Assembly (NCBI GenBank): GCA_001822075.1 | Contig: MHPK01000001.1 | Span: 22,757-86,756, forward strand | DNA from: Candidatus Staskawiczbacteria bacterium RIFOXYB1_FULL_38_37 | GTDB taxonomy: Bacteria > Patescibacteriota > Minisyncoccia > Minisyncoccales > Staskawiczbacteraceae | Length of the DNA stretch: 64,000 nucleotides | Direction: 5' to 3' | Shown: positions 3,001 through 60,931 of the stretch, piece by piece | How positions within the stretch are numbered: the first letter of the stretch is position 1 | How the letters are laid out: each line of letters opens with the position of its first letter | Notes under the pieces: generated by a model | The model's input: the letters and a program-made list of their open reading frames with translations, nothing else | Database searches by the model: none | What the model was told of the DNA's origin: nothing | Position numbers and translations under genes: made by a program

Positions 3001-6000
3001 AAACTAATGTCGGCGCATTGGGAGCGGTGTTTGCGGGAGCTCCCCCGCTGTAAACTCCAATTATACCTGTGCCGTAAGAAGAATTGCCTGTGTCCTGATA
3101 GCCAGCCACAAAATTCGTGGTGTCAAGGGCCGCAACAGAAACATAGGCAGTAGAAGCTGAATTAAACGCAGCCTCATCTTCATAAGTAATGTCTGTTCCA
3201 GATATTGTGCCAGCTAAAGCTGTGCCATAAGAAGAGTTGCCTGTGTCTTGATAACCAGCTATAAAATGGGTGGAGTCAAGAGCTGAAACAGAAACATAGG
3301 CGGTAGCAGCTGAATTAAACGGATAGGCAGCGCCATAGGTTATTGTGGTTCCAGATACAGAGCCGATTGCAGCTGTGCCATATGTGTTTGAATCTGTATA
3401 TCCTACCACAAAGCTGGTGGCGCTGAGCTTGGTAAAAGAAATATAGGCCTGAACATCTAACGCAATCATATCTTTCTCTGTGCCATAGCTTATTGTTGTT
3501 CCATCTACTGTGCCGATTCTACTTCTGCCATAGGTGGCAAAAAACCCAAACACAAAACTGGTAGAGCTAAGAGCCGCGACAGAAACATAGGTAACTACTC
3601 CTGTACTAAATGTGGACTGAGTGCCATAACCAGTTATTGTTGTTCCAGATACAACTCCAACTATAGCATATCCCCTATTAGTTGCTGGAGGAACATTACT
3701 TTTGCACAAAACCACAAAATGTGTTGAGTCAAGGGCCGCGACAGAAATAGAAATAGAATTAGCATTAGTTACGGTGTTGAATACACTCTCTGCGCCATAA
3801 GAAGATATTGTTGTTCCAGATACTTCTCCAACTATAGCTGTGCCTACATCAGAGTTGCCTACATCTGAATAAGCAGCCACAAAATGGGTGGAGTCAAGAG
3901 CCGCGACAGAAATATAAGTAGTAGCAGCTGAGTTAAACGCAACCGGGGTGCCGTAACTTATTGTTGTTCCAGATATAGAGCCAACTACAGCTGTGCCATA
4001 TCCGGTTGAATCCCTGTATGCTATCACAAAACTTGTGGAAGTAAGCATGGCAGTAGAAACATAGGTGGTGGAAGCTGATGCGAATGCATTCTCAGCGCCG
4101 TAAGCTATATTGCTTGGGTCAACTATCCAATCAATATCAATGTCACCGCTTATAATCTTTAAGTCAAAAATGTCTGTGGGTGTTCCGAGATTAGTAAGCA
4201 AAATTCCATACATTCCCTCGTGATCTATGCTTTCAAAAGTTGCAACAAGCCCGCCTTGCGTCTGGTTGCCATCTTGGTCTTCATAAATAGGATACACTTC
4301 TATTGTTGCTGGCTGGCCTGGATTTGTTGGTTTAGCATAAATTGTATTGTCTTTTGTATTGTCTAATATTTGCTCAAAAGTAGCTCTAACATAGTGTCCA
4401 TTTGGAACTGTTGCCCATTGATTGTCTTGCGCCACTGTAAGGTCATAAATGTCAGCTACTATTTGCTGGTTTTCATCCATTTCAAATGCTTTGGAAATAA
4501 ATATGATTTCAAATATCTGTTCTGATAAGTGAGGCACTGTCCACTCCACATAATCTAACTTTCCGTTGTTATTGAGGTCAAATGCGTGGAATTCCATTTC
4601 AGCATAGCCATTATCCCGACAGGCTTCTGCCTGTCGTGGATCCTCGACTGCTTCGCAGTCGGGATTTTGCCACTTAATTTTGATTTTGCTTTCCTGTCCT
4701 ACTTTGTAAATTTCTGGAATTGTTGTGTAGGCTAATACATTTGTGATTGGTGGCTGGTCTGGCTGTTCTTCTGCTGAAATTGTAACCAGCTTTCCTTTGT
4801 CTGTTTCTTGTTCTGTGATTTCTGGCGCTGGGGTCTCGTAATCTACTTCAACATATTCTTCGGTTTCTTCTGATTGCTCTATTTCTACAACTTCCTGGTC
4901 TGTTGGAGTCGTTGTTTCAGTTAGTAATTCTCCTGGAAGCTGGATTATTTCCTGGTTAGAAAGAGACACAGGTTCTATGACTGGTATTTCTGGAAGCTCT
5001 GAAATGGCTTCTTGTTCTGACTCATCAATTTCTTCTTGCCGTTCGGATTCTGATTCTACAAACTCCTCTTCAATTGGCTCCTCGCCCGCCTGATTGTCCG
5101 CAGGACTTTCGGCGGGCTCGCCTAACTCAATATCCCCGCCTGAAGCTGCTGCATCATTGCGGGCAGGTTCAGAACTTTGGGCAGGTTCTTCTTCTGCAAT
5201 TTGTTCTTGGGGTTGCTCAGGTTCCTCGCCCGCCTGATTGTCCGCAGGGCTTTCGGCGGGTTGTTGAACTTCTGGTTCAGGCTCTTCTGCTGGAAGCGCT
5301 TCTGAAACATCAACAAACACAGCTTCATTTGTTTCTATAATTTCAGGCTGGGATTCTGCTATACTTTCTGTAATCTGGGCAACTGCGTTTTCTGCGGCTC
5401 CATGGACATCAGCGAGAAAAAATCTGTACACTTTAGACAAAAAATTCTTTGGCTCTGTTTTTGTAAGCTGTTTGCGCTCTTCTGCGGCAAACTGGAACTG
5501 GGAGGTTTCAGCCGAATAGTTTGCTATTGCCAAAGCTTCCTGCTTTGTAATTGATTTTACCTTGATATTCTGGGCGTTTTTCGGAAGCTGGACTAAGTTT
5601 GCGCCGGCTGTAATATCTGATTTTTTAATCACAGCTGACCATTTTACTGTTTGCCCCACAACAGCTGGCGAGGTTTGCTTTGTTAAAGCTGTTTTAATAA
5701 TCTGGCTTTGGCTTATCCGGGGTTTTGGCGAAACAAACCAGGCTGCGGTGAATAAAATACAAAGAGTTAACACAAAAACAGCTATTCCCTGCGCAACACA
5801 AAACGGCCTGAAAGACATATAAAAATTTTTGCCCCGCAGAATATAGGCCTGTTTTTTGATTTTATCTTTTAGAACAGCCAAGAGAGCAGTTGAGCGCTTT
5901 GAAAAGCGCAATTTAATCAACTTAATTTTTCTTTTTATTCTTCTTTTCCAGTATCTTAGGCAATATTTGAAAATCTTTTTTTGAGGCGCCAAAAATTCCC

Positions 6001-6851: not shown

Positions 6852-8285
6852 ATGGATAAGTTCAATTTTTTAGCAAAAAATAAGTTAGACAACCTCCCGA
6901 AAACCAGCGGAGTATATTTGTTTTACGCCAAAAACAATAAAACGCCTATTTATATTGGCAAAGCAATAAGCATTAAAAATAGAGTAAAAAACCATTTTCA
7001 GGGAAAAAATTGGTGGGAGAAAACCCTCCTTCGCCAAGCCTGCCTGCCGGCAAGGCAGGGCTTCGGCGGGCAAGTTGGCTATTTTGAAACAAATTCTGAA
7101 ATTGAAGCATTAATTTTGGAAGCTAATTTAATCAAAAAATACCAGCCCAAATATAATGTAATGTGGCGGGACGATAAAAATTATTTTTATGTTGCCATCG
7201 CAAAAAATGAAAATGAAATTCCCTATGTGTTTATCACCCACCAGAAAAATCAAAAAAAGACTGAATACGTGGGTCCCTTCACAGAAGGCACGGCTCTTAA
7301 AAAAACTTTACGATTTTTAAGGCGAGCATTCCCCTATTATTCGATAAAAAAACATTCAAAATTAAAATGCGCATACTGCCATTTAGATTTATGTCCTGGT
7401 CCTTACGAACAATTGTTTGCGCCTCGCCTTGGCGGGCTCGGCGCGCCAAATGCGTTTGGCGAATACAAAAAAAATATCAAAAAATTAATTTTGATATTAA
7501 AAGGGAAAAGAAAAACTGTTTTAAATTCTCTTAGAAAAGAAATGAAACAGCTGGCAAAAAATAGAGAATTTGAAAAAGCCGGAAAAATCAGGGACGAAAT
7601 TTATGCTTTGCAGCAAGTTATGCAACATACTCATGTAATCAGCGGAAACGAAATCAGCGGAAACGAATATGACGAGTTTTTGCCGTACGGCAAAAACTCG
7701 TATTCACCCGGTTTTAAAACCCTGCAAAAAATTGTAGGAATAAAAAATGATATTAACAGAATAGAATGTTATGATGTTTCAAATATACAAGGAAAACAAG
7801 CCACGGGCTCTATGATTGTTTTTATAAACGGCAAACCGGACAAAAATCAGTACAGAAAATTCAGAATTAAAATGGAAAATGAGCCAAATGACATTGCAAT
7901 GTTAAAAGAAACAATCAGCAGGCGCTTGCAACATTCAGAATGGCCGTATCCTGAAATAATGCTTATTGATGGCGGAAAAGGCCAATTAAATGCCGCTATC
8001 GCGGCAAAATCCGAAATCCTAAATCCGAAATCCGAAACACCTGCCCGCATCGGCTGCGCCGAAGGCGTTGCAGGCGGGAATTCAAAATTCGAAATTCAAA
8101 ACATAAAAGTCGTATCCATTGCAAAAGGCGGGCAGGAGCTGTTTATTGAAGGCAAAAATAAACCCATTCCGCTTAAAAGTTTACCGCAGGAAATTTATAA
8201 TCTGATTTTGCAGTTAGACAGCGAAGCTCATCGGTTTGCAATAAGTTATCATAAAAATTTAAGAAAAAAGAACTTAATGCCTTAA
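6852..8285 (+). CDS. uvrC: Excinuclease ABC subunit C (short form, carrying repeat-derived insertions)
   Basis: N-terminal GIY-YIG motifs (SGVYLFY...PIYIGKA...RVKNHF) and a UVR motif (REFEKAGKIRDEIYALQ). C-terminal nuclease-half motif IECYDVSNIQG. No terminal (HhH)2 is evident. Confidence 0.85.
   Translation: MDKFNFLAKNKLDNLPKTSGVYLFYAKNNKTPIYIGKAISIKNRVKNHFQGKNWWEKTLLRQACLPARQGFGGQVGYFETNSEIEALILEANLIKKYQPKYNVMWRDDKNYFYVAIAKNENEIPYVFITHQKNQKKTEYVGPFTEGTALKKTLRFLRRAFPYYSIKKHSKLKCAYCHLDLCPGPYEQLFAPRLGGLGAPNAFGEYKKNIKKLILILKGKRKTVLNSLRKEMKQLAKNREFEKAGKIRDEIYALQQVMQHTHVISGNEISGNEYDEFLPYGKNSYSPGFKTLQKIVGIKNDINRIECYDVSNIQGKQATGSMIVFINGKPDKNQYRKFRIKMENEPNDIAMLKETISRRLQHSEWPYPEIMLIDGGKGQLNAAIAAKSEILNPKSETPARIGCAEGVAGGNSKFEIQNIKVVSIAKGGQELFIEGKNKPIPLKSLPQEIYNLILQLDSEAHRFAISYHKNLRKKNLMP
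7039..7074 (+). repeat. GC-rich composite element in frame in uvrC (palindrome cctgcctgccggcaaggcagg + ggcttcggcgggcaag)
   Basis: Translates as CLPARQGFGGQV within otherwise AT-rich uvrC. The palindrome recurs at 39662-39681 and the 16-mer recurs (reverse complement) at 45882-45897. Confidence 0.8.
8006..8102 (+). repeat. Composite insertion in uvrC: (aaatccga)x4, a GC-rich core, then (gaaattc/aaaattc) array
   Basis: aaaatccgaaatcctaaatccgaaatccgaaacacctgcccgcatcggctgcgccgaaggcgttgcaggcgggaattcaaaattcgaaattcaaaac. It stays in frame (KSEILNPKSETPARIGCAEGVAGGNSKFEIQN). Confidence 0.8.
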
Positions 8286-10952: not shown

Positions 10953-11605
10953 TGGAATTTGATTTAACAAAATTAACTCCTGATGTTCGCAAATTAAGCG
11001 ACATGAAAAATGTTATTTATGACAAAAAATGGCTTAAGACAGCCGATAATGTTGAATTATATTATATGTACCGGGGATTGGAAGAAATGGACGGATTAAG
11101 ATATGATGTTACATTAATTCCGGCAAAAATGCTTGGCTCAGAATTTGTTAAAACAAAGGGCCACTATCATATAGGCGATTGGCAGGAAATTTATACGGTT
11201 ATAAAAGGCCAAGCCATATATTTAATGCAAAAGAAAAACAATAAAGAAAAAATCAAAGACGTTTATTTTGTAAAAGCCAAAAAAGGAGAATCAATAATAA
11301 TTCCTTCGGGCTACGGGCATGTCACAATAAACCCGTCAGAAACCCAAGAATTAAAAATAGGCAACTGGATTTCAGAAGATTGCGAAAGCGACTATTCTGA
11401 TTTTGAAAGACTTCAGGGAGCATGCTATTACTATGCTAAAAAGGGCCCCGCCTCCGCTAAGGCTTCCGCCTCCGATGAATCTTCGGCGGGACAAGTCGGC
11501 GAGGCAAAGTGGATAAAAAATGAAAATTACAAAGATATCCCTCCTCTGCGGGAAGAAAAACCTTTAAAATCTATACCTCAAAATTTAGATTTTTTAAGGC
11601 AATAA
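10952..11605 (+). CDS. Cupin-type (archaeal-type) glucose-6-phosphate isomerase-like protein
   Basis: Cupin metal motif TKGHYH...E(I)Y...G...PSGYGHVTINP resembles cPGI. The C-terminal part carries a GC-rich in-frame insertion. Confidence 0.55.
   Translation: MEFDLTKLTPDVRKLSDMKNVIYDKKWLKTADNVELYYMYRGLEEMDGLRYDVTLIPAKMLGSEFVKTKGHYHIGDWQEIYTVIKGQAIYLMQKKNNKEKIKDVYFVKAKKGESIIIPSGYGHVTINPSETQELKIGNWISEDCESDYSDFERLQGACYYYAKKGPASAKASASDESSAGQVGEAKWIKNENYKDIPPLREEKPLKSIPQNLDFLRQ
11444..11505 (+). repeat. GC-rich element in frame in the PGI-like gene
   Basis: ggccccgcctccgctaaggcttccgcctccgatgaatcttcggcgggacaagtcggcgaggc translates as GPASAKASASDESSAGQVGEA. It is homologous to the ruvA element at 45877-45911 (reverse complement). 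Confidence 0.8.
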
Positions 11606-30735: not shown

Positions 30736-33700
30736 TTATCTGTTATTTAACATTGCTTTTATTTGCTCAAATATCTTTGCGAGCGCATCAGAAATGGAGG
30801 CCAATGAATTATCATTTGTATTATAGCTGGTTATACATGGACTCGTTGTCTCGCTTAGTTTTTGCTGGCACCATGTTTCATTTGTCTGGTTTGCCGCATA
30901 AAAAGATAAATCGCCAAGCCCGATTTCGCCGTCCTTGTCTACATCTGCTGCCGGATTATACAAAGTCAATCCGCATTTTGTTTTGTAGCTATTTTGTATT
31001 TTAGTATACAACTGATTACAATAGTTTGTTGCGGAAGTTGTAGCACTGGCAGCGCACGGGCTTGTTGTGACGTTTAGTTTTTCTTTGCACCAGTTCTCGT
31101 TTGTTTTGTTATCCGAGTATAAACCTAAATCCAAGAAGCCAACGTTCTTATCTTTATCTATGTCGGCTGACGCATCGTATGCTGAGTCACCGCATTTTTT
31201 TCCATAGCTTGCTGTTATTTTTTCATACAGCTGAAAACAATAGTTCGTTAAAACTGAACTTGTGATGGTAAAATAGTTGTCGCTGTAATCCTGCGCCGCT
31301 GTTCCCCCATAAGAAACTAACATCAAGTTATAGGTCCCTCCAGAAATATCAGAAGGAATTGTCCATTGATAACTGCCACTGTTTGGTATATTTAGCGCGA
31401 TATTTTTGAGATATGCAGCCCCTGTTGCGCCCGGATTAAGTAAATTTATAGAAACACCCATGCTCCCAAAATTGGAAGTTGTCCACGTGATATTATGCGT
31501 TTCGCCGATATTCCATGTTTCTCCGCCGTTGGGTGAGGTCACAGTAATTGAGGGCTGGGTGTTTGTAACCGGAACCCAAACTATTTGACTTACTGATGTG
31601 TTCTGCGCGTTGTTAAAACATTGTATGCCTATTTGTAATGGACTCGTATAACCATAATTTTTATGATCGGCTATTAAAACTCTACTTCCCGAAGCCGGCA
31701 AGTTGTGTAAATCAGTCCAATAACCGCTGCCATCAACCAAAGGAACATAATGTCCATAAGCTGCGCAATTATCTGCGCCGGTTGAAGTCCAAGAAACAGT
31801 AAACTGTGATTTATACAAAATACTTTCTGGCGAGCTTGACCCATTTGCTTTTATATCAACACTAAATGGTGTCGTTGTTGAAACAATTTTGAAATACGAA
31901 TCGCTGGCGTCAAATAAAAGAACATCTCCTATGTAACTTTTAATCTCTAATGTATATGCTCCCTCTGGCACAGAAGACGGTATTGTTATAACTTCTTGCC
32001 CGTCATTCAAAACACCTTCAACTAAATTATATTCCTGTCCATTTGGATATGCTCTTAATCTAATCAAGTTAAATTTTTCAGATGACGACACATTGGCCGT
32101 TTTCCAATTAACGGTAATACTGCCCCCCAATTTATATGTTTCCCCGCCGTTGGGAGAAGTCACAGTAATCGACGGCTGGGTGGAAATGCAGGGGTTTGTG
32201 GTGTCATTCAGCTTTTCTTTGCACCAGGTCTCATTTGTTTTATTTTCTCCATAAAAGCCGTTATCAAGCAGGTCAACTGTTTTGTCTTTGTTTAAATCAG
32301 CTACAGGATCGTAAGCCGTGTCTCCGCACTTCTTTTGCCAGCTATCGCCTATTCTGCCAAGCAATAAGAAACAACTCCCGCTGTTATTTGAACCTGAGCT
32401 AATGGTAAAATAGTTATCACTAAAATCCTGTGAAGAAGGATTAGAGGTTAGCGTTCCATCGGGACTACAATAGCGTTCAGTACCTTTTTCTCCACAAAAA
32501 ACTCTTAATTTGTAAGTATCGGGTTCAATAGTATTAGAAATTGTCCAACTTACGCTACCCGTGTTATCAATTTCGCTAAAAATATAATAGTTGTGCGCAA
32601 CGGTTGTGCCATTTAATTGCATAGTTATCGTACCATTAGAAGGAAAATTCAATCCAGTCCACGTTATCTTATGAGTTTCACCTTGTTTCCATGTTTCTCC
32701 GCCATTGGGCGAGGTTACAGTAATTGATGGCTGATTAGCTTGCGAATCACACTTTACTTCTCCTTCTGCATCAATAATTTGCTGTATAGAGATATTCTTT
32801 AAATTTCCCGATATTGTTGTCCCAGACTGTATGTACTTTGTGTCATAATCAGAAACAATCAATTTAATCGGGCCAACTTCATCTTTAGAGATTAGGCCCA
32901 TTAAATATAAATCTAGATTAGAATACCCATGTTTATAATCTGTAATTGTTTTTGCAGTAAAAGTGCCGTCTCCATTATCTGTCCAAGAAAATCCATTTAA
33001 TAAATCATAACCAGTTTCAAGTTTTTTATCCCAGTGAGCCATATTGTATGGATTTCTTAAAGCACCACTTTTTTGACCATCATCGTCAACAAATTTTACG
33101 TAAGCACCCCATTGGTGAGAAGTTTCGTGCAGTATGGCGTTCACCGCAAGATCTTGGTATTCAACGTTATAATAATTATCTATATTTTTTAGCCAATTAA
33201 CCCCAAGCAAGTTTCCTCCGCTTCCATAATAATTTGTATTATCGAAAATACTAAGTCCTATACCACTTACATCATTTTTTACTAGAATATGATATTGAGT
33301 GCCGGCATCATCATAAGTATTAAATATAGTTAAAAAATGAAAATCGTCAGAATTTTGTTTATAGAATTCTTTTACTATATTTTCTACTGATGAGTCATTA
33401 TTCATTTTTATAACTTTGACGGGGTAAGATACATCCAAAGACGCCAATCCTTTTGTAGCCCAACTGAACGTTTCTGATGCCTCTTGTTTTAAAACATTTA
33501 TTTTGCTTACATCTTCATTTGTAGCTATATTGCCTGAATTTTCAACTAATACAAAAGCCATTTTATATTCTTTTATCCCACAAACTGAAGACGTCACTTG
33601 CTGAGTTGAGCAGCCGTAAAGTTGGTTTAATTTTGCCCTGGTGCTTTTGCCAACATAGCCTGTGCCATGGGTTAAGCCGTAGGGAGCTAAAATTTCCGAG

Positions 33701-39604: not shown

Positions 39605-40585
39605 TTATTTATTTATTCTTGAAACTCTTGTAAATCCAGAGCACGTTACAATTTCAATTCCCCTGCCTGCCGGCAGGCAGGTTGCCTTTTCAAGTTCGTC
39701 CATCAATAAATTTACGCCCAAAGAATCAGACGAAATGTGGCCTGCAATTACAATATTTATGTGCGAGGCCTCTGCCTCTTTTTTATGCTCTTCTGAAATG
39801 TGCATGCCAACTACTGTTCCGATGCCTGCCTGCGCCATTTTTTCATAAAGCTTTGGCGATCCTTCAGTTCCTCCTGTAATTTCAGCCATTGATATTTTAC
39901 CACAGCGGTTGTCAGCAGAGCCCACAAAAATTTTAGGGCCGACTCCGATTTTCATTGCCTCTTTATATTCTGGAATTTCTTTTAATATGCTTATTAAGTC
40001 AGAAACTCTTTCAACTTCTTTGCCTTCAATTAAATCTTTTAAAAATTTAGCAGCTAAATTGTCGCAGGGAGTGTGCGAGTTCATTAAGTTAACTTTCATT
40101 AATCTGGCGGCGTCAACTGTTCTGTTGTGGTTTGAACTGTTTACCCCTCGAGCAACTTCTGAAATTCTTTCTCTCATCAATCCCTCTGAAATGTTGATTG
40201 GCACTCCGTAATAAGCTAAAACATCGCACTGCAAATCCATAACATCAGCCAATTGCGCCAAACCCTTGCCCACAGGATGATGGGCAATTACCAAATCAAT
40301 ATCTCCTAATTGCTTTGCCATTAAAATTTCTTCGGGGCCTATGTCAATGCCAACCAAAACTTTTTTAATATCTTTATCGTCTGAAATATTATAAACTCCT
40401 GAATCCAAATACGGATTTTCTAAAGCATCTTTATCAAAGTCTTCTTTTTCTATTTCTGAAAGCTTTTCAAATTTATCTTTTTTCCTATCTAAAAATTTTC
40501 GCACTCCGTCTGCGCCCCTGAAATCAGCTTCCGTGCCCATTTTTATCATTAAATTGTAAATATCTTGTATTCGCATAATTTTCAA
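39605..40585 (-). CDS. NIF3/YbgI-family (DUF34) dinuclear-metal protein, long form
   Basis: The DLVIAHHPVG and IAGHISSDSLG motifs resemble NIF3 metal-binding His clusters. A C-terminal GC-rich palindrome is inserted in frame. Confidence 0.55.
   Translation of the reverse strand: MKIMRIQDIYNLMIKMGTEADFRGADGVRKFLDRKKDKFEKLSEIEKEDFDKDALENPYLDSGVYNISDDKDIKKVLVGIDIGPEEILMAKQLGDIDLVIAHHPVGKGLAQLADVMDLQCDVLAYYGVPINISEGLMRERISEVARGVNSSNHNRTVDAARLMKVNLMNSHTPCDNLAAKFLKDLIEGKEVERVSDLISILKEIPEYKEAMKIGVGPKIFVGSADNRCGKISMAEITGGTEGSPKLYEKMAQAGIGTVVGMHISEEHKKEAEASHINIVIAGHISSDSLGVNLLMDELEKATCLPAGRGIEIVTCSGFTRVSRINK
39662..39681. repeat. Perfect 20-nt palindrome cctgcctgccggcaggcagg, in frame in the NIF3-like gene
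   Basis: Translates (minus strand) as ...CLPAGRG.... Same family as 7039-7059 in uvrC. Confidence 0.85.
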
Positions 40586-45437: not shown

Positions 45438-46025
45438 TTATTTCCCCAGATTTTTTAACGCAAGTTTTATACGTTCCTCTGTATTTTTAATATTAGAAGC
45501 AATGTGGCTTAAAGCTTCTTTTGCCTGCTGTTTTGAAAATCCAAGCTGGACTAATGCATTTTCCGCCTCGTCCGCCGACGATGATTTTTGCCCTAGTTGT
45601 TTTATTTTTCCTGTAAGCTCTAAAATTATTGTCATTGCTCTTTTAGATCCAATGCCGGGAATGCCCGCAAAAACATTTTCGTCTTGTTTCAAAATTTTGT
45701 CTTTTATTTTTTCCAAAGGTCCGACAACGGAAATTTCTAAAGCGGCTTTTGGCCCTATGCCCCTTATATCATTTAATATCTCAAAAAATTCCAGCTCCTC
45801 ATAAGTTAAAAACCCGTACAGGTCTGACTTGTCTTCTCTTATATCATGGTATATAAAGAATTTTACAGGAGCAATTTGGGGCTTGCCCGCCGAAGCCTCG
45901 GCGGAGGCGGGTAATTTTAATAAGGTTTGGCGGGATAAAAAAACTTTGTAGCCAATTCCGGCCACTTCTATAATAACAAACTTATCTTTTTTTAATATAA
46001 CTTTACCTTCTAAAAATGATATCAT
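45438..46025 (-). CDS. ruvA: Holliday junction helicase subunit RuvA
   Basis: MISFLEGKV...VIIEVAGIGYKVFLS OB domain and HhH motifs (IRGIGPKAALEI, IPGIGSKRAMTIILEL). Confidence 0.9.
   Translation of the reverse strand: MISFLEGKVILKKDKFVIIEVAGIGYKVFLSRQTLLKLPASAEASAGKPQIAPVKFFIYHDIREDKSDLYGFLTYEELEFFEILNDIRGIGPKAALEISVVGPLEKIKDKILKQDENVFAGIPGIGSKRAMTIILELTGKIKQLGQKSSSADEAENALVQLGFSKQQAKEALSHIASNIKNTEERIKLALKNLGK
45877..45911. repeat. GC-rich hairpin element in frame in ruvA
   Basis: ggggcttgcccgccgaagcctcggcggaggcggg reads on the minus strand as PASAEASAGKPQ. It contains the hairpin ccgccga-ggct-tcggcgg. Confidence 0.85.
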
Positions 46026-52990: not shown

Positions 52991-55021
<2,031 letters not shown>

Positions 55022-57671: not shown

Positions 57672-58589
57672 TCAAATAAACATATTAAAATACCAGCTTA
57701 TTATCTGCTGGCCCCAAAACATTGCCATAAATGTGCCTATGATTAAAAATGGGCCGAAAGGTATTTCGCTTTTTAATTTTTTTTCACGCAAGACAATCAG
57801 TATTATGCTTATTATAGCGCCAAAAAAGAATGCTAAAAACAGAGCGGCCAAAACATTGTTAACTCCAAGCAATAAACCCATTAAAACAGCCAGCTTTACA
57901 TCGCCAAACCCCATCCAGCGTCCCTTGGAAATAAGAAAAATTACCAAGAAAAAACCCGAAGCAATGATGGCGGCGAGCAAATAACCGCCAAAAATCCGAA
58001 ATCCGAAATCCGAAATCCGAAACAAATTTAAATTTTCAAAATCCAAAATTCCAAATTCAAAAATGCGATAAACTGCTGTTATACCTATTGCAGGGAACAA
58101 AACTTTGTCGGGAATAATATAATGCTTTAAATCATACACAAAAATTATAATTAAAGAGCTGGCAACATAAAACCAAAAGGCCAAATTTATGAAATTTAAA
58201 ATTTGGATTTCATTTAAAATTTGAAATTTAAAATTTAAAATTAACAAAAATATCGCACCCGTTGCTAATTCAACTGCAGGATACTGCCATGATATTTTTT
58301 TTCTGCAATATCTGCATTTTGCTTTAAAAAACATAAAGCTAAAAACCGGAACCAAATCAGTCCAGCTTAAAGTATGCTTGCAATTAGGGCAAAAGCTTCT
58401 GCCACGCAGTTTCTTTATTAAACTTTGCCTCCCCGACAAAAGCGCTTCGCGCATTTTGACGGGCCCGTCAGAATGTCCCGCATTAGCGGGACTTTCGTCG
58501 GGCAGTCTATAAATAACGCAGTTCAAAAAACTGCCAATACACAGCCCCAAACCAAAAATAAAAATATAAGCTAAAAACCCTAAAATCAT
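57672..58589 (-). CDS. pilD: Prepilin peptidase (A24 family) with three repeat-derived in-frame insertions
   Basis: CPNC...CRYC zinc cluster and a polytopic membrane body. Catalytic-region motifs include GFGDVKLAVLMG and the FGPFLIIG segment. Confidence 0.85.
   Translation of the reverse strand: MILGFLAYIFIFGLGLCIGSFLNCVIYRLPDESPANAGHSDGPVKMREALLSGRQSLIKKLRGRSFCPNCKHTLSWTDLVPVFSFMFFKAKCRYCRKKISWQYPAVELATGAIFLLILNFKFQILNEIQILNFINLAFWFYVASSLIIIFVYDLKHYIIPDKVLFPAIGITAVYRIFEFGILDFENLNLFRISDFGFRIFGGYLLAAIIASGFFLVIFLISKGRWMGFGDVKLAVLMGLLLGVNNVLAALFLAFFFGAIISIILIVLREKKLKSEIPFGPFLIIGTFMAMFWGQQIISWYFNMFI
57990..58065. repeat. (aaatccga)x4 followed by aaattt/aaaatcc/aaattcc/aaattca array, in frame in pilD
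   Basis: aaaaatccgaaatccgaaatccgaaatccgaaacaaatttaaattttcaaaatccaaaattccaaattcaaaaatg reads on the minus strand as IFEFGILDFENLNLFRISDFGFRIF. Confidence 0.85.
58183..58245. repeat. AT-rich 7-8-nt array (aaatttN) in frame in pilD
   Basis: aaatttatgaaatttaaaatttggatttcatttaaaatttgaaatttaaaatttaaaattaac reads on the minus strand as LILNFKFQILNEIQILNFINL. Confidence 0.8.
58428..58505. repeat. GC-rich multi-hairpin insertion in frame in pilD
   Basis: Contains gcgc-ttc-gcgc, gacgggcccgtc and gtcccgc-atta-gcgggac. Translates as DESPANAGHSDGPVKMREALLSGRQS, immediately before the CPNC motif. Confidence 0.8.
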
Positions 58590-58603
58590 TAAATAATCTT
58601 ACC
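58541..58603. repeat. Direct repeat DR1 (the pilD 5' end plus 14 nt upstream)
   Basis: 63 bp matching 59785-59847 (offset 1244) with 5 mismatches by hand alignment. Confidence 0.8.
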
Positions 58604-58675
58604 CGGTTAAATAATCTATTTAATTATTATAAAACAATTAAATAGATTAAGCCAATGCTTATTTAACAGGGTGAA
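58599..58675. repeat. MITE-like element, copy 2: ttacccggttaaataa ... ttatttaacagggtgaa
   Basis: Terminal inverted repeats related to 42423-42486. Begins exactly where DR1 identity ends. Confidence 0.55.
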
Positions 58676-58720
58676 TCATTTTTTCTAAACAAAAAACAGA
58701 GCCTTTTACAGCCTGTTTTG

Positions 58721-59344
58721 TTAAGACAGACTAAACTCTATAAGTTTTAATTTTATCATTTCATCGCTGGTTTCAAAGCCCGGTTTCCAAATAATTTCTT
58801 CGCGGTAATCCATGTCTCCAAAATACGCAAGTTGATTTCTAAACATCCGTTCATTAAATTCATTGCCAAATATATTCTTGGCTTTTTTAATAATTTCTGC
58901 CAGCTTATGCTTCTTGTCCATTATAAAATACAAATCAACATAATCTTTCCATTTTGGCCTGCGCCCTAAAGCATATGCTTTCATTGCGGCAAGAGTCAAA
59001 AGGTCTGGCATTGCTATTATATTCTCAAAATTCATATTAAATTTTATTTCAAAAGGATAGTGAAAAAAAGTCAATTTCACTGGACCTATATCCATGGTGT
59101 ACTGTCCTGTTTCGTCTCTTAAAACTCTGGGAATTCTTTTTCCTCTTATTATTTTTGCCCTGATTTTATGATTTTCAAATTCTGATAATGAAAATAAGTC
59201 AAAATCTATGGATTCCCTGTGGCCGATATGCAAGGCAATGGCTGTCCCCCCCACCAAGCCAAAATCTTTTTTAAATAATTTTATCAACGGCAAAAGTTCT
59301 TTCTGTTCTTTAGTTAAAATTTCCTTATGCAACTTACTTGGCAT
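58721..59344 (-). CDS. AbiEii-type nucleotidyltransferase (type IV TA toxin family)
   Basis: Start moved to MPSKLHKE. FGLVGGTAIALHIGHRESIDFDLFS matches the AbiEii GGTAL...HR.S.D.D motif. Confidence 0.7.
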   Translation of the reverse strand: MPSKLHKEILTKEQKELLPLIKLFKKDFGLVGGTAIALHIGHRESIDFDLFSLSEFENHKIRAKIIRGKRIPRVLRDETGQYTMDIGPVKLTFFHYPFEIKFNMNFENIIAMPDLLTLAAMKAYALGRRPKWKDYVDLYFIMDKKHKLAEIIKKAKNIFGNEFNERMFRNQLAYFGDMDYREEIIWKPGFETSDEMIKLKLIEFSLS

Positions 59345-59609
59345 ATTTATTAAAATATAAAGAAAAATAATTTCGCGCCTTTTTATCATAGTTCGTTCTT
59401 GGGCCGCTGGTTTGCCTCCTAAAAATCTCTGCTATCTTTTTAATGCCTACAATTTTAATAAGCTGGTTAAAATCGTCCCAATTCCCATAATTTAAGGTGT
59501 GTTCAACTATTGCCTCAACCGGAAGATTCTCAGGCTCTTTTGCATACCAAATCAAATACCTTCTCTTTTTCATATATTTTTTAAGCTTGTTTTGAATTGT
59601 TTTTTCCAT
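59334..59609 (-). CDS. 91-aa partner ORF upstream of the AbiEii-like gene (putative antitoxin, non-canonical)
   Basis: 11-nt overlap with the NTase start. Much shorter than AbiEi, with no recognisable HTH. Confidence 0.4.
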   Translation of the reverse strand: MEKTIQNKLKKYMKKRRYLIWYAKEPENLPVEAIVEHTLNYGNWDDFNQLIKIVGIKKIAEIFRRQTSGPRTNYDKKARNYFSLYFNKYAK

Positions 59610-59711
59610 GTATATACTTAATTATAGCACAAAAACCCTGCTTAATCCATACCTGCTATCGCGTTTACTCACCTGTTTGAAGTTTTGCAGATACCCGGCA
59701 CCTTAACAGTT

Positions 59712-59740
59712 AGATAGACGTCGGACGTCTATCTGTTTTT
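59712..59740 (+). terminator. 23-nt palindrome agatagacgtcggacgtctatct + T-run (plus-strand terminator-like)
   Basis: 11-bp arms with the central motif gtcggac shared with the ligA palindromes. No annotated plus-strand gene lies upstream. Confidence 0.4.
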
Positions 59741-59784
59741 AGCTGAAACTTCGAGTTGGTGAGGAGTTGTCTGCCCGCCCGCGC

Positions 59785-59847
59785 ACCGCCCAAAAACAAA
59801 AATAAAAATATAAGCTAAAAATTCTAAAATCATTAAATAATCTTACC
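59785..59847. repeat. Direct repeat DR2: relic copy of the pilD 5' end (ATG at 59833, MILEFLAYIFIFVFG... then diverges)
   Basis: See DR1. The relic ORF runs about 33 codons before a stop. Confidence 0.8.
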
Positions 59848-59863
59848 ATTTTTTCCTACATTT

Positions 59864-59889
59864 AAAAAGCCCCGAAATCGGAGCTTTTT
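59864..59889 (-). terminator. Terminator after the pilin gene
   Basis: Minus strand reads aaaaagctccg-attt-cggggcttttt. Confidence 0.6.
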
Positions 59890-59923
59890 AAATTACACGA
59901 GAATCTTTCTCAAAATAGTTAAT

Positions 59924-60340
59924 TTAGGGACAAGCATCCAAAGCCGCACAAGTGCCAGTTACTTGTATTTTTTTACCAGAGGCGTCTACACAGAAATAAT
60001 CACCAGAATCTGCAACTAATTGGGCGCAAGCAGCCCAGGTATCTACGTCCTCATTAGCTGTTAAAGTACAAATTAGTGTTGAATCCGCATCTGTTATAGC
60101 ACCAGAGACAGGACCTGCGCAGCCCATGCTAGTATCTGCCCCAAAACCTGCATATGTAGCATTTTCATCAACATATACTGCTGAATTTATAAGCAAACTG
60201 CTTAAATTGCCCTTAATGGCGGCGTCCTTACCCCGGTTTATATATTGGGTGACGTTAACTAATACGATAGTGGCCAATACGGCGATAATTGCGATAACCA
60301 CTATCAACTCAATAATCGTAAAACCTTTTGATTTGTTCAT
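59924..60340 (-). CDS. pilA: Type IV pilin (probable major pilin)
   Basis: MNKSKGFTIIELIVVIAIIAVLATIVL class III signal and a C-terminal Cys pair. Confidence 0.8.
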   Translation of the reverse strand: MNKSKGFTIIELIVVIAIIAVLATIVLVNVTQYINRGKDAAIKGNLSSLLINSAVYVDENATYAGFGADTSMGCAGPVSGAITDADSTLICTLTANEDVDTWAACAQLVADSGDYFCVDASGKKIQVTGTCAALDACP

Positions 60341-60481: not shown

Positions 60482-60931
60482 CTAATCTATAGGCGGACAT
60501 TCAAAATTCGGCATATCTGTCTCTGAATCCTCGGGACAATCTGCTATATCTATTTCTTCTTTAACTCCCCTACTATCAACGCAAAATGCTTTTTCCGGAT
60601 TCTTTGGCGTAAATAACTTTACACAGGCAACCCATTTGTCATAAGAATCACTGACTTTGCAGTAGGGAGTATATGAAGAGGGAAGAGGCATTTGCTCAAA
60701 AGAATTTAAAACCACAGAAGATCCGCAAAAACCATAATAGCTTTTTTCTCCCGGGCCGTCGTAGTAAACTTCGCCAGCTGGTATTAAAATAGACAAATTA
60801 CCCTGAATGTTTGAATCTTTGCTTCTGTTTACAAAATATAATGTGGTAAATAAAATTGTGGTTGACAAGATAACTATGAGAGCCACCACCACAACCATTT
60901 CGGCCAACGTAAACCCATAACTTTTCTGCAT
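60482..60931 (-). CDS. Type IV pilin-like protein
   Basis: MQKSYGFTLAEMVVVVALIVILSTTIL prepilin N-terminus. Confidence 0.75.
   Translation of the reverse strand: MQKSYGFTLAEMVVVVALIVILSTTILFTTLYFVNRSKDSNIQGNLSILIPAGEVYYDGPGEKSYYGFCGSSVVLNSFEQMPLPSSYTPYCKVSDSYDKWVACVKLFTPKNPEKAFCVDSRGVKEEIDIADCPEDSETDMPNFECPPID

What the first reader, a model, noticed from the sequence alone, without database searches (positions are those of the whole stretch)
58541..59847. AbiEii-like TA cassette inserted in the pilus locus, flanked by a 63-bp duplication of the pilD 5' end
The first 15 codons of pilD plus 14 nt upstream (58541-58603) are repeated 1244 bp away (59785-59847, 5 mismatches by hand). This leaves a relic ATG-MILEFLAYIFIFVFG fragment upstream of the cassette. 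Between the repeats lie a MITE-like inverted-repeat element, an AbiEii-type nucleotidyltransferase, its 91-aa overlapping partner and a GC-rich palindrome. This looks like a discrete insertion (target duplication or recombination scar) that split the pilA-pilD intergenic region. It places a defence-type module inside the pilus operon.
Basis: seen in the sequence. Interest (0 to 1): 0.6.

Follow-up and report, generated by a model that had tools for sequence, protein, structure and literature searches.

The report
Toxin cassette inserted with long target duplication
A small two-gene toxin-antitoxin-like module was inserted long ago into the start of the pilus peptidase gene pilD, and the insertion copied the gene's start so that pilD stayed intact; the same insertion signature turns up around this module in many other ultrasmall (Patescibacteria) genomes, so it is a real but already described kind of event.

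Summary
A 64-nt direct repeat (59/64 identical; 58540-58603 and 59784-59847) brackets about 1.18 kb. It scores 49 against 9.9±1.3 in shuffles, and the window holds only these two copies.

- **The two copies.** The downstream copy is the true pilD start (-14 to codon 16/17). The upstream copy is a dead 34-codon relic.
- **What lies between.** A 91-aa helical protein plus a MenT/AbiEii-fold nucleotidyltransferase.
- **It is an insertion.** None of 49 related pilD loci carries the module (for example L086, where pilin is followed directly by pilD).
- **It is old.** It is shared with L002 (about 79% DNA identity), whose relic reaches codon 31. The original duplication was therefore at least about 110 nt.
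- **The 'MITE-like' inverted repeat is native.** It is the pilD promoter region, about 97% identical in the empty-site relative. It is not part of the insert.
- **The pattern is family-wide.** In 80 other Patescibacteria species the module sits in unrelated contexts. In 13 of 67 loci it is flanked by 32-99-nt repeats of host sequence, most spanning a neighbouring gene's start or stop (3 of 330 shifted controls; P=1e-8).

This matches 'insertion with long target duplication', described for restriction-modification systems. The joining mechanism remains inferred.

The parts
59924..60340 (-). Major pilin gene (138 aa) upstream of the insertion site.
   Evidence: The ORF has an N_methyl prepilin motif, E 7e-9.
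59860..59893 (-). Pilin terminator hairpin.
   Evidence: Inverted repeat I11, 16-nt arms, 94% complementary, followed by a T run.
59784..59859 (-). Upstream (relic) copy of the duplicated target: 'TAGGAAAAAATG', then 14 nt of pilD leader, the ATG and about 16 codons.
   Evidence: 64 nt, 59/64 identical to 58540-58603. Four of the five differences match the pilD of relative L002 (E4, V13, F14).
59729..59833 (-). Relic ORF of 34 codons (MILEFLAYIFIFVFGRC...*). It is a dead pilD N-terminus fused to filler.
   Evidence: Translation.
59640..59783 (-). GC-richer 144-nt filler between the relic and the cassette promoter. It holds a perfect hairpin at 59711-59735. It occurs only in this species and replaces relic codons ~18-31.
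   Evidence: Present only in L001, L003 and L175 and absent from L002. It has no Rfam family. Its overall fold is no better than shuffles, z -0.17.
59610..59639 (-). Cassette promoter region with an extended -10 (TGCTATAAT at 59621-59629), 11 nt before the ATG.
   Evidence: A TGnTATAAT lies 5-15 nt before the partner gene's ATG in several cassette loci (L008, L016, L026, L071 and others; L068 has TATAAT without the TG). It is shared with L002 and L003.
59334..59609 (-). 91-aa partner gene (presumed antitoxin).
   Evidence: It lies immediately upstream of the nucleotidyltransferase in 78 of 80 loci. It is highly conserved. The model is all-helical with pLDDT 90.5 and has no PDB match.
58721..59344 (-). 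Nucleotidyltransferase, 207 aa from M16 (the ORF is open to 59389). It belongs to the AbiEii/MenT toxin family.
   Evidence: Pfam PF08843 and PADLOC AbiEii. The model has pLDDT 93 and its best PDB matches are MenT1, JHP933, MenT4 and MenT3. The GG...DxD and K..KD..D columns are invariant.
58677..58717 (-). Terminator-like hairpin plus 'TTTAGAAAAAATG'. It is probably the duplicated pilin-terminator/pilD-leader segment.
   Evidence: It is homologous to the segment after cassette 2 and after the pilin gene in L002, and to the pilin terminator of L086.
58604..58676 (-). Resident pilD promoter region: TTGGCT-18-TATAAT (58655-58626) with inverted repeat 58612-58628 / 58633-58649.
   Evidence: It is the best promoter-like site in the region, 10 of 12 matches. 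It is about 97% identical upstream of pilD in the empty-site relatives L086-L088. No other copy was found.
58540..58603 (-). Downstream (functional) copy of the duplicated target: pilD leader, ATG (58589-58587) and the first 16-17 codons.
57672..58589 (-). pilD prepilin peptidase (305 aa), intact.
   Evidence: A24_N_bact E 6e-31 and Peptidase_A24 E 5e-14.

Best explanation
**What it is.** The 64-nt repeat is what remains of a long target duplication. It formed when a compact, recombinase-free two-gene addiction-type module was inserted into the first ~30 codons of pilD. The module is its own promoter, a 91-aa partner and a MenT/AbiEii-fold nucleotidyltransferase. The event happened in an ancestor of this Staskawiczbacteria lineage.

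**How the duplication helped.** The insertion copied the pilD leader and 5' coding end, originally at least ~110 nt. The downstream copy therefore still gives an intact pilD, driven by its own promoter. The upstream copy is a dead relic.

**Later changes (shown by comparison).**
- This species replaced the distal part of the relic with a GC-rich filler.
- Relatives stacked further cassettes at the same place.
- The cassette and the pilD alleles were reshuffled by recombination.

**Family pattern.** The same signature (variable 32-99-nt repeats of host sequence, usually spanning a flanking gene's start or stop) recurs around this module in unrelated genomic contexts. It is therefore a property of how such modules enter these compact genomes. 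This is 'insertion with long target duplication', described for restriction-modification systems.

**Inferred, not shown.**
- Incoming linear DNA, probably taken up by natural transformation, is joined by illegitimate recombination at staggered positions.
- Selection keeps only those events whose duplication preserves the neighbouring gene.
- Toxin-antitoxin addiction disfavours loss by recombination between the repeats.
For: **The repeat is real and unique**.

**No mobility gene or defined ends.**
- No integrase or transposase lies in or beside the insert.
- No terminal inverted repeats were found.
- Insert boundaries vary: 0-200 nt before the partner gene's ATG and 9-150 nt after the stop.

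**Empty sites exist.**
- L086/L087 have pilin followed directly by pilD.
- None of 49 pilD loci with at least 1.2 kb of upstream sequence carries the module.

**The event is old.**
- The same arrangement is seen across the species.
- L002 has an orthologous relic of the same MI(L)EF allele, extending to codon 31.

**The module sits elsewhere.** In 80 other species it is in non-pilD contexts, and the gene pair is conserved in 78 of 80.

**Flanking repeats are a family property.**
- Flanking direct repeats score at least 20 in 13 of 67 loci, against 3 of 330 shifted controls (Fisher P 1.2e-8).
- Each repeat has a different host sequence.
- In 9 of 12 loci with flanking repeats that were examined, the repeats cover the 3' end or the start of a flanking gene.

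**An independent pilD case.** L174 has two pilD relics bracketing a HicBA pair and a DUF4143 fragment.

**Literature.**
- Furuta 2010 (PMC2853133) describes repeats longer than 30 bp of variable length, with no other mobile element. They often span start or stop sites and occur mostly in naturally competent species.
- Saccharibacteria are naturally competent and their type IV pilus genes are essential (PMC10633639).
Against: - No same-species empty site was found. The empty sites are in relatives with 47-69% pilD identity, so the exact pre-insertion sequence is inferred.
- About 80% of cassette loci show no detectable flanking repeat. One example is L176, wedged between murG and gltX with gaps of 38 and 7 nt.
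- The joining mechanism is unknown, here as in the literature. No microhomology was evident at the youngest junctions (L016).
- Toxicity, neutralisation and addiction are untested.
- The relic and the live copy may partly reflect allelic exchange rather than one event. L003 and L004 show the same cassette (98.6-99.5% identical) next to a different pilD allele.
- L003 is a short contig and could be chimeric.
Confidence: 0.75

Rival explanations
1. Recombination scar rather than duplication at insertion. A donor that already carried the cassette directly upstream of its own pilD recombined with a recipient. The crossover was homologous within pilD on one side and illegitimate on the other, inside the recipient's pilD 5' end. 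The two copies would then be two different alleles, not a copied target.
For: - Four of the five differences in the relic match another functional allele (L002) rather than looking like random decay.
- The same cassette lies next to different pilD alleles, with a breakpoint at ~58767 inside the nucleotidyltransferase gene.
- The short and long pilD leaders occur in all combinations with the coding alleles.
Against: - It does not explain why the same module is flanked by host-sequence repeats in at least 13 unrelated contexts, where no pre-existing homologous donor arrangement is expected.
- It is really one possible mechanism for the same outcome, not a different outcome.
Confidence: 0.15
2. 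Site-specific or transposase-mediated integration. The 64-nt repeats would be attL/attR cores, or the target duplication of a non-autonomous element moved in trans. The inverted-repeat element would be its end.
For: - The direct repeats are sharply bounded on one side.
- An inverted repeat lies next to one copy.
- A Y1 transposase occupies the same gap in L089-L093.
Against: - No recombinase lies in or near the insert.
- The junction position in pilD differs between relatives: about codon 17-20, 21, 25 and 31.
- The repeats are a different host sequence in every locus, and the insert ends are not conserved.
- The inverted-repeat element is present in the empty site of L086 and is single-copy.
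Confidence: 0.05
3. The module is not an insertion. It would be a conserved accessory of the pilus operon, or an assembly artefact of a metagenome bin.
For: - The module is fixed in this species and is transcribed in the same direction as the pilus genes.
- The source is a metagenome-assembled genome.
Against: - None of 49 related pilD loci has it.
- None of the 80 loci of the same module in other species has pilD nearby.
- The arrangement is recovered independently in NCBI, ENA and JGI assemblies.
- The two copies differ at 5 positions, which collapsed or misjoined reads would not produce.
Confidence: 0.03

Closest known systems
Insertion with long target duplication of restriction-modification gene complexes (Nobusato et al. 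2000, Gene 259:99; Furuta, Abe and Kobayashi 2010, PMC2853133)
   Same: - A compact addiction-type gene pair with no transposase or integrase.
- Direct repeats longer than 30 bp, of variable length and made of host sequence.
- The repeats often span a flanking gene's start or stop, so that gene survives.
- Empty sites exist in relatives.
- Tandem stacking of units occurs.
- The host group is naturally competent.
   Different: - The cargo is a nucleotidyltransferase toxin-antitoxin-like pair, not a restriction-modification system. The 'double-strand break by the cargo' idea therefore does not transfer.
- The hosts are Patescibacteria.
- The empty site here is in a different species.
- The duplication is old and eroded (64 of at least ~110 nt remain).
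AbiE / MenAT nucleotidyltransferase toxin-antitoxin systems (AbiEii, MenT1/3/4; PDB 8an5, 6y56, 6y5u)
   Same: - The toxin has the same fold and Pfam family.
- The catalytic GG...DxD and K/R-D-x-x-D columns are conserved.
- A small gene lies immediately upstream and overlaps the toxin gene.
   Different: - The partner is a 91-aa all-helical protein. It has no wHTH AbiEi match, no PDB match and only a sub-threshold DUF6922 hit.
- No NCBIfam model matches either protein.
- Toxicity, the target (tRNA?) and phage defence are untested.
Variable accessory-gene slot next to the pilin gene (known from Pseudomonas aeruginosa pilin alleles; from my own knowledge, not tested here)
   Same: A recombination-prone, strain-variable slot lies beside the major pilin gene. 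Here it holds AbiEii-type cassettes, HicBA, a DUF4143 fragment or a Y1 transposase in different relatives.
   Different: The cargo here consists of selfish modules, not pilin-modification genes. Insertions land in the pilD 5' end and leave relics of it.

Membership tests
Insertion with long target duplication (criteria of Furuta et al. 2010) | The inserted segment carries the complete addiction-type gene set and is shorter than 20 kb. | tested here: met
   The insert is 1180 bp and holds both the 91-aa gene and the nucleotidyltransferase gene.
Insertion with long target duplication (criteria of Furuta et al. 2010) | The direct repeat is longer than 30 bp and made of target (host) sequence. | tested here: met
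   The repeat is 64 nt, 59/64 identical, and is the pilD leader plus its first codons.
Insertion with long target duplication (criteria of Furuta et al. 2010) | No other mobile-element gene is present, and the repeat is neither a multi-copy element nor a tRNA/att site. | tested here: met
   No integrase or transposase appears among the neighbours. The repeat has two copies only in 64 kb.
Insertion with long target duplication (criteria of Furuta et al. 2010) | A related genome has an empty site that holds the repeated sequence once. | tested here: inconclusive
   Pilin is followed directly by a single pilD start in L086/L087 and in the other relatives. These are different species (pilD 47-69% identical). 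No same-species empty allele was found.
AbiE toxin-antitoxin system (AbiEi + AbiEii) | An AbiEii (DUF1814, PF08843) nucleotidyltransferase with its catalytic motifs. | tested here: met
   Pfam E 6.6e-10, 39.8 bits against a cut-off of 22.5. PADLOC AbiEii. Invariant G32 G33 D47 D49 K122 R128 K133 D134 D137. The fold matches MenT1/3/4.
AbiE toxin-antitoxin system (AbiEi + AbiEii) | An AbiEi antitoxin with an N-terminal winged helix-turn-helix and a C-terminal neutralising domain. | tested here: not met
   The partner is 91 aa and all-helical. It has no AbiEi hit in Pfam, PADLOC or NCBIfam and no PDB fold match.
AbiE toxin-antitoxin system (AbiEi + AbiEii) | The toxin arrests growth, the partner neutralises it, and the system causes abortive infection. 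| not testable with these tools
   This needs expression and phage assays.
MITE (claimed for the inverted-repeat element 58604-58690) | Many dispersed copies with terminal inverted repeats and target duplications. | tested here: not met
   It is a single copy in the window. In 1.16 Mb of loci it occurs only upstream of pilD, in this species and in L086-L088. It is present in the empty-site relative.
Integron cassette or site-specific island | A recombinase gene and a conserved recombination site (attC/att) at the cassette borders. | tested here: not met
   No recombinase is present. The borders and repeats differ in every locus.

The most novel reading that the evidence does not exclude
The start of pilD may act as a recombinase-free cassette platform. 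Each insertion leaves a copy of the pilD 5' end, and these copies then serve as portable homology. Through them, toxin-antitoxin or defence cassettes would be stacked, swapped and spread by transformation, right beside the genes of the DNA-uptake pilus.

More generally, insertion with long target duplication may be the main way small selfish modules enter Patescibacteria genomes. The cassette's own polymerase-beta-type nucleotidyltransferase might even help in the joining.
Probability: 0.12. Interest if true: 0.75.

Novelty: new member of a known kind. Interest (0 to 1): 0.5.

Why it matters
How toxin-antitoxin modules move without any recombinase of their own is still poorly understood. Here one abundant module (thousands of close homologues in Patescibacteria) carries, in about a fifth of sampled loci, the signature first described for restriction-modification systems. 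That signature is a long, variable duplication of host sequence that keeps the neighbouring gene intact. The finding extends that little-studied insertion mode in two ways:

- to a second class of addiction module;
- to a major uncultured bacterial radiation with very compact genomes and natural competence.

It also gives many dated examples (repeat identity from 84% to 100%) on which a mechanism could be worked out. For the pilus locus itself, it shows that pilD keeps its own promoter, and that the pilin-pilD junction is a recurrent landing site.

Tried and rejected
- **Structured RNA in the insert.** An Rfam scan of 58300-60100 found nothing near any gathering score (best was IS128 at 23 bits against 80). 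The 155-nt GC-rich filler folds no better than shuffles (z -0.17). A structured-RNA reading was dropped.
- **Multi-copy elements.** I looked for further copies of the inverted-repeat element and of the GC-rich filler, as one would expect of MITEs. None was found.
- **Conserved insert termini and microhomology.** Neither was seen at the junctions across 13 loci.
- **Solved relatives of the nucleotidyltransferase by sequence.** None was found. Only the fold search gave matches.
- **Fold of the 91-aa partner.** No PDB match at E<=0.001.
- **Same-species empty site.** Exact-protein look-ups always returned the filled arrangement.
- **Other contexts for a near-identical nucleotidyltransferase (P0023).** It has one fixed context, between murG and gltX, with no repeats.
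- **NCBIfam.** No model matches either cassette protein.
Full report
**1. What is in the window.**
All genes of the region lie on the minus strand. In transcription order they are:

- pilB and pilT-type ATPases and pilC;
- two pilins, at 60482-60931 and 59924-60340;
- a terminator hairpin (59860-59893);
- the upstream repeat copy (59784-59847);
- a GC-richer 144-nt stretch (59640-59783) with a perfect hairpin at 59711-59735;
- a 91-aa gene (59334-59609);
- a nucleotidyltransferase gene (58721-59389);
- a terminator-like hairpin;
- an inverted-repeat region with the best promoter-like site of the region, TTGGCT-18-TATAAT at 58655-58626;
- the downstream repeat copy (58540-58603), which contains the pilD start;
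- pilD (57672-58589), four further short genes of the pilus cluster (presumed minor pilins; no prepilin motif was tested) and ligA.

The source is contig DOZL01000005.1 of GCA_003518025.1. An identical 91-aa protein is named from a Candidatus Staskawiczbacteria genome.

**2.
- The repeat is 64 nt with 59 identities.
- Its local score is 49. Shuffles give 9.9±1.3 with a maximum of 15. Same-geometry pairs across the window have a 99th percentile of 17.
- A 50-nt core occurs exactly twice in 64 kb.
- The upstream copy opens a 34-codon dead ORF.
- Most homologues of the nucleotidyltransferase are 203-209 aa. Its start is therefore probably M16 at 59344, which overlaps the 91-aa gene by 11 nt.

**3. 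It is an insertion, and an old one.**
*Relatives without the module.*
- L086/L087 (pilD 69% identical) have three pilins followed directly by pilD.
- Of 49 metagenomic pilD loci with at least 1.2 kb of upstream sequence, none holds the module.
- L089-L093 carry a Y1 transposase gene in the same gap.

*Relatives with the module.*
- It is next to pilD in this species. The arrangement is the same in NCBI, ENA and JGI assemblies, across 112 index blocks.
- It is also next to pilD in L002, L003 and L004.

*Age.*
- L002 is about 79% identical in DNA.
- It carries a relic of the same MI(L)EF allele that runs to pilD codon 31, although an internal deletion has removed codons ~5-16.
- After the relic come cassette 1 (91% identical to the window's), a second AbiEii-type cassette and an intact pilD.
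- The event therefore predates the split of these lineages. The original duplication covered at least the leader plus 31 codons, about 110 nt.
- The window species later lost relic codons ~18-31 to the GC-rich filler, which occurs only in this species.
- Four of the five differences between the copies match L002's functional pilD. The relic thus preserves an older allele rather than random decay.

**4. The inverted-repeat element is not part of the insert.**
- In the empty-site relative L086, the ~100 nt upstream of pilD are about 97% identical to window 58590-58690. This includes the promoter-like hexamers and the inverted repeat, even though the proteins are only 69% identical.
- A short allele lacking this ~86-nt element occurs in the relic and upstream of pilD in L002 and L004; L003's second pilD 5' copy, itself a relic, also carries the short leader.
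- No other copy exists in the window or in 1.16 Mb of fetched loci.
- It is best read as pilD's own promoter/operator region. It explains how pilD is expressed behind the cassette's terminator. That last step is an inference.

**5. The cargo.**
*Nucleotidyltransferase.*
- It is a distant but clear AbiEii-family member (Pfam and PADLOC).
- Its catalytic columns are conserved.
- The confident model (pLDDT 93) is closest to MenT1, JHP933, MenT4 and MenT3.

*The 91-aa partner.*
- It lies immediately upstream in 78 of 80 loci.
- It is strongly conserved.
- It is all-helical with pLDDT 90.5.
- It matches nothing solved and is not an AbiEi-type protein.
- The pair therefore works most likely as a MenAT-like toxin-antitoxin module. 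This is untested.

**6. The flanking duplication is a family property.**
- A scan of one genome per species found the module in 499 stretches. The 80 best are spread over many Patescibacteria lineages, and none is near pilD.
- I compared the 300 nt on each side of the module. In 13 of 67 loci there are direct repeats scoring at least 20. The same geometry shifted by 1.5-3.5 kb gave 3 of 330 (Fisher P 1.2e-8).
- The repeats are 32-99 nt long and 84-100% identical. Each locus has a different sequence.
- In 9 of 12 such loci examined, the repeat covers an end of a flanking gene, with the complete copy attached to the gene body:
  - the 3' end of the upstream gene in L008, L014, L068 and L071;
  - the 3' end of a convergent gene in L016;
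  - the start of the downstream gene in L026, L041, L052 and L053.
- Insert ends are not conserved. The left end lies 0-200 nt before the ATG and the right end 9-150 nt after the stop. There are no terminal inverted repeats.
- L002 shows the same thing one level down. A 37-nt promoter repeat brackets cassette 1.
- L174 is an independent lineage (pilD about 53% identical). It has two pilD relics bracketing a HicB/HicA pair and a DUF4143 fragment.

**7. Comparison with what is known.**
- This is the pattern that Kobayashi's group called insertion with long target duplication. It involves restriction-modification genes and no other mobile element. The repeats are longer than 30 bp and variable, often span start or stop sites and occur mostly in naturally competent species. 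The units can be amplified through the repeats (PMC2853133).
- In the library searched, I found the term applied to toxin-antitoxin systems only through citations, not as a finding.
- Saccharibacteria are naturally competent, and their type IV pilus genes are essential (PMC10633639). This fits selection for insertions that spare pilD.

**8. Mechanism: shown and inferred.**
*Shown.*
- A duplicated host segment brackets a recombinase-free module.
- Empty sites exist in relatives.
- Junctions are variable.
- The pattern recurs across contexts.
- The locus was later reworked by recombination: L003 and L004 carry the same cassette at 98.6-99.5% identity next to a different pilD allele, with a breakpoint near 58767.

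*Inferred.*
- The joining is illegitimate and acts on incoming linear DNA at staggered positions.
- Selection filters for gene-preserving duplications in very compact genomes.
- Addiction stabilises the insert against deletion through the repeats.

*Caveats.*
- About 80% of loci show no repeats (for example L176).
- L003 is a short contig.
- No same-species empty site was found.

**9. Verdict.**
The feature is real and correctly spotted. Its core interpretation is right, apart from the 'MITE' reading and the exact target. It is a new member of a known but little-studied kind of event. The added value is the family-wide evidence in Patescibacteria.

Noticed in passing
window 5065-5157, 5205-5288, 7010-7091, 8022-8094, 11431-11517, 39659-39707, 45863-45928, 54458-54556, 58426-58511: The 37%-GC window is dotted with 40-100-nt GC-rich palindromic islands that share CCCGCC/GGCGGG-type arms. 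Two of them sit in frame inside genes. One is in ligA ('[16 protein letters not shown]'). The other is in pilD ('PDESPANAGHSDGPVKMREALLSGRQ') and is absent from the pilD of L002, L004 and L086. They resemble REP/RPE-like elements.
   Followed up: partly
L101:758-858 versus window 58395-58525: A more distant pilD (about 60% identical) carries a related GC-rich in-frame insert at the same position (78% identical over 108 nt). The insert is therefore either old or recurrent at this site.
   Followed up: no
window 58590-58690 versus L086:4904-4986: The pilD leader/promoter region with its inverted repeat is about 97% identical between two organisms whose pilD proteins are only 69% identical. The short and long leader alleles occur in every combination with the coding alleles. 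This points to strong constraint or to recent exchange of just this segment.
   Followed up: partly
L089:4140-4985 (also L090-L093): A 239-aa Y1 (IS200-like) transposase gene sits between the pilin gene and pilD. It is flanked by hairpins of the form GGGAAGTGTTCCC, one of which also lies inside the gene. This resembles a REP-associated transposase unit. No pilD relic is present.
   Followed up: partly
L174:1100-2300: An independent stacked array lies at the pilD start: relic 1, HicB/HicA, relic 2, a DUF4143/Mrr_cat C-terminal fragment, then intact pilD. The two relics share the post-junction sequence GAATTA(G/T)CCACAAG. The second insertion therefore duplicated the first relic together with its junction.
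   Followed up: partly
L090-L094 between the genes downstream of pilD; L086:2978-3214: Other small variable genes interrupt the same pilus cluster in relatives. A 23S_rRNA_IVP/bAvd four-helix-bundle gene is present in some strains and absent in others. A 78-aa GIY-YIG gene lies between pilC and the pilins.
   Followed up: no
L176:2730-3630: In another Staskawiczbacteria species the same module family is wedged between murG and gltX, with gaps of only 38 and 7 nt and no flanking repeat. The context is fixed across at least 24 contigs.
   Followed up: partly
window 57992-58019 and 58170-58250 (inside pilD): pilD contains a 7-nt tandem repeat (AAATCCG x3, read as 'RISDFGFRIF') and AT-rich 'aaatttaaaattt' repeats ('FKFQILNEIQILNF'). 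The latter is shared with L002.
   Followed up: no
window 31054-31557 versus 32188-32733: Diverged direct repeats spaced ~1.15 kb apart (up to 77 nt, score 41) lie at 31-33 kb. They look like internal domain repeats, possibly of one large coding region; the ORFs there were not examined. They were the only other high scorers in the same-geometry control.
   Followed up: no
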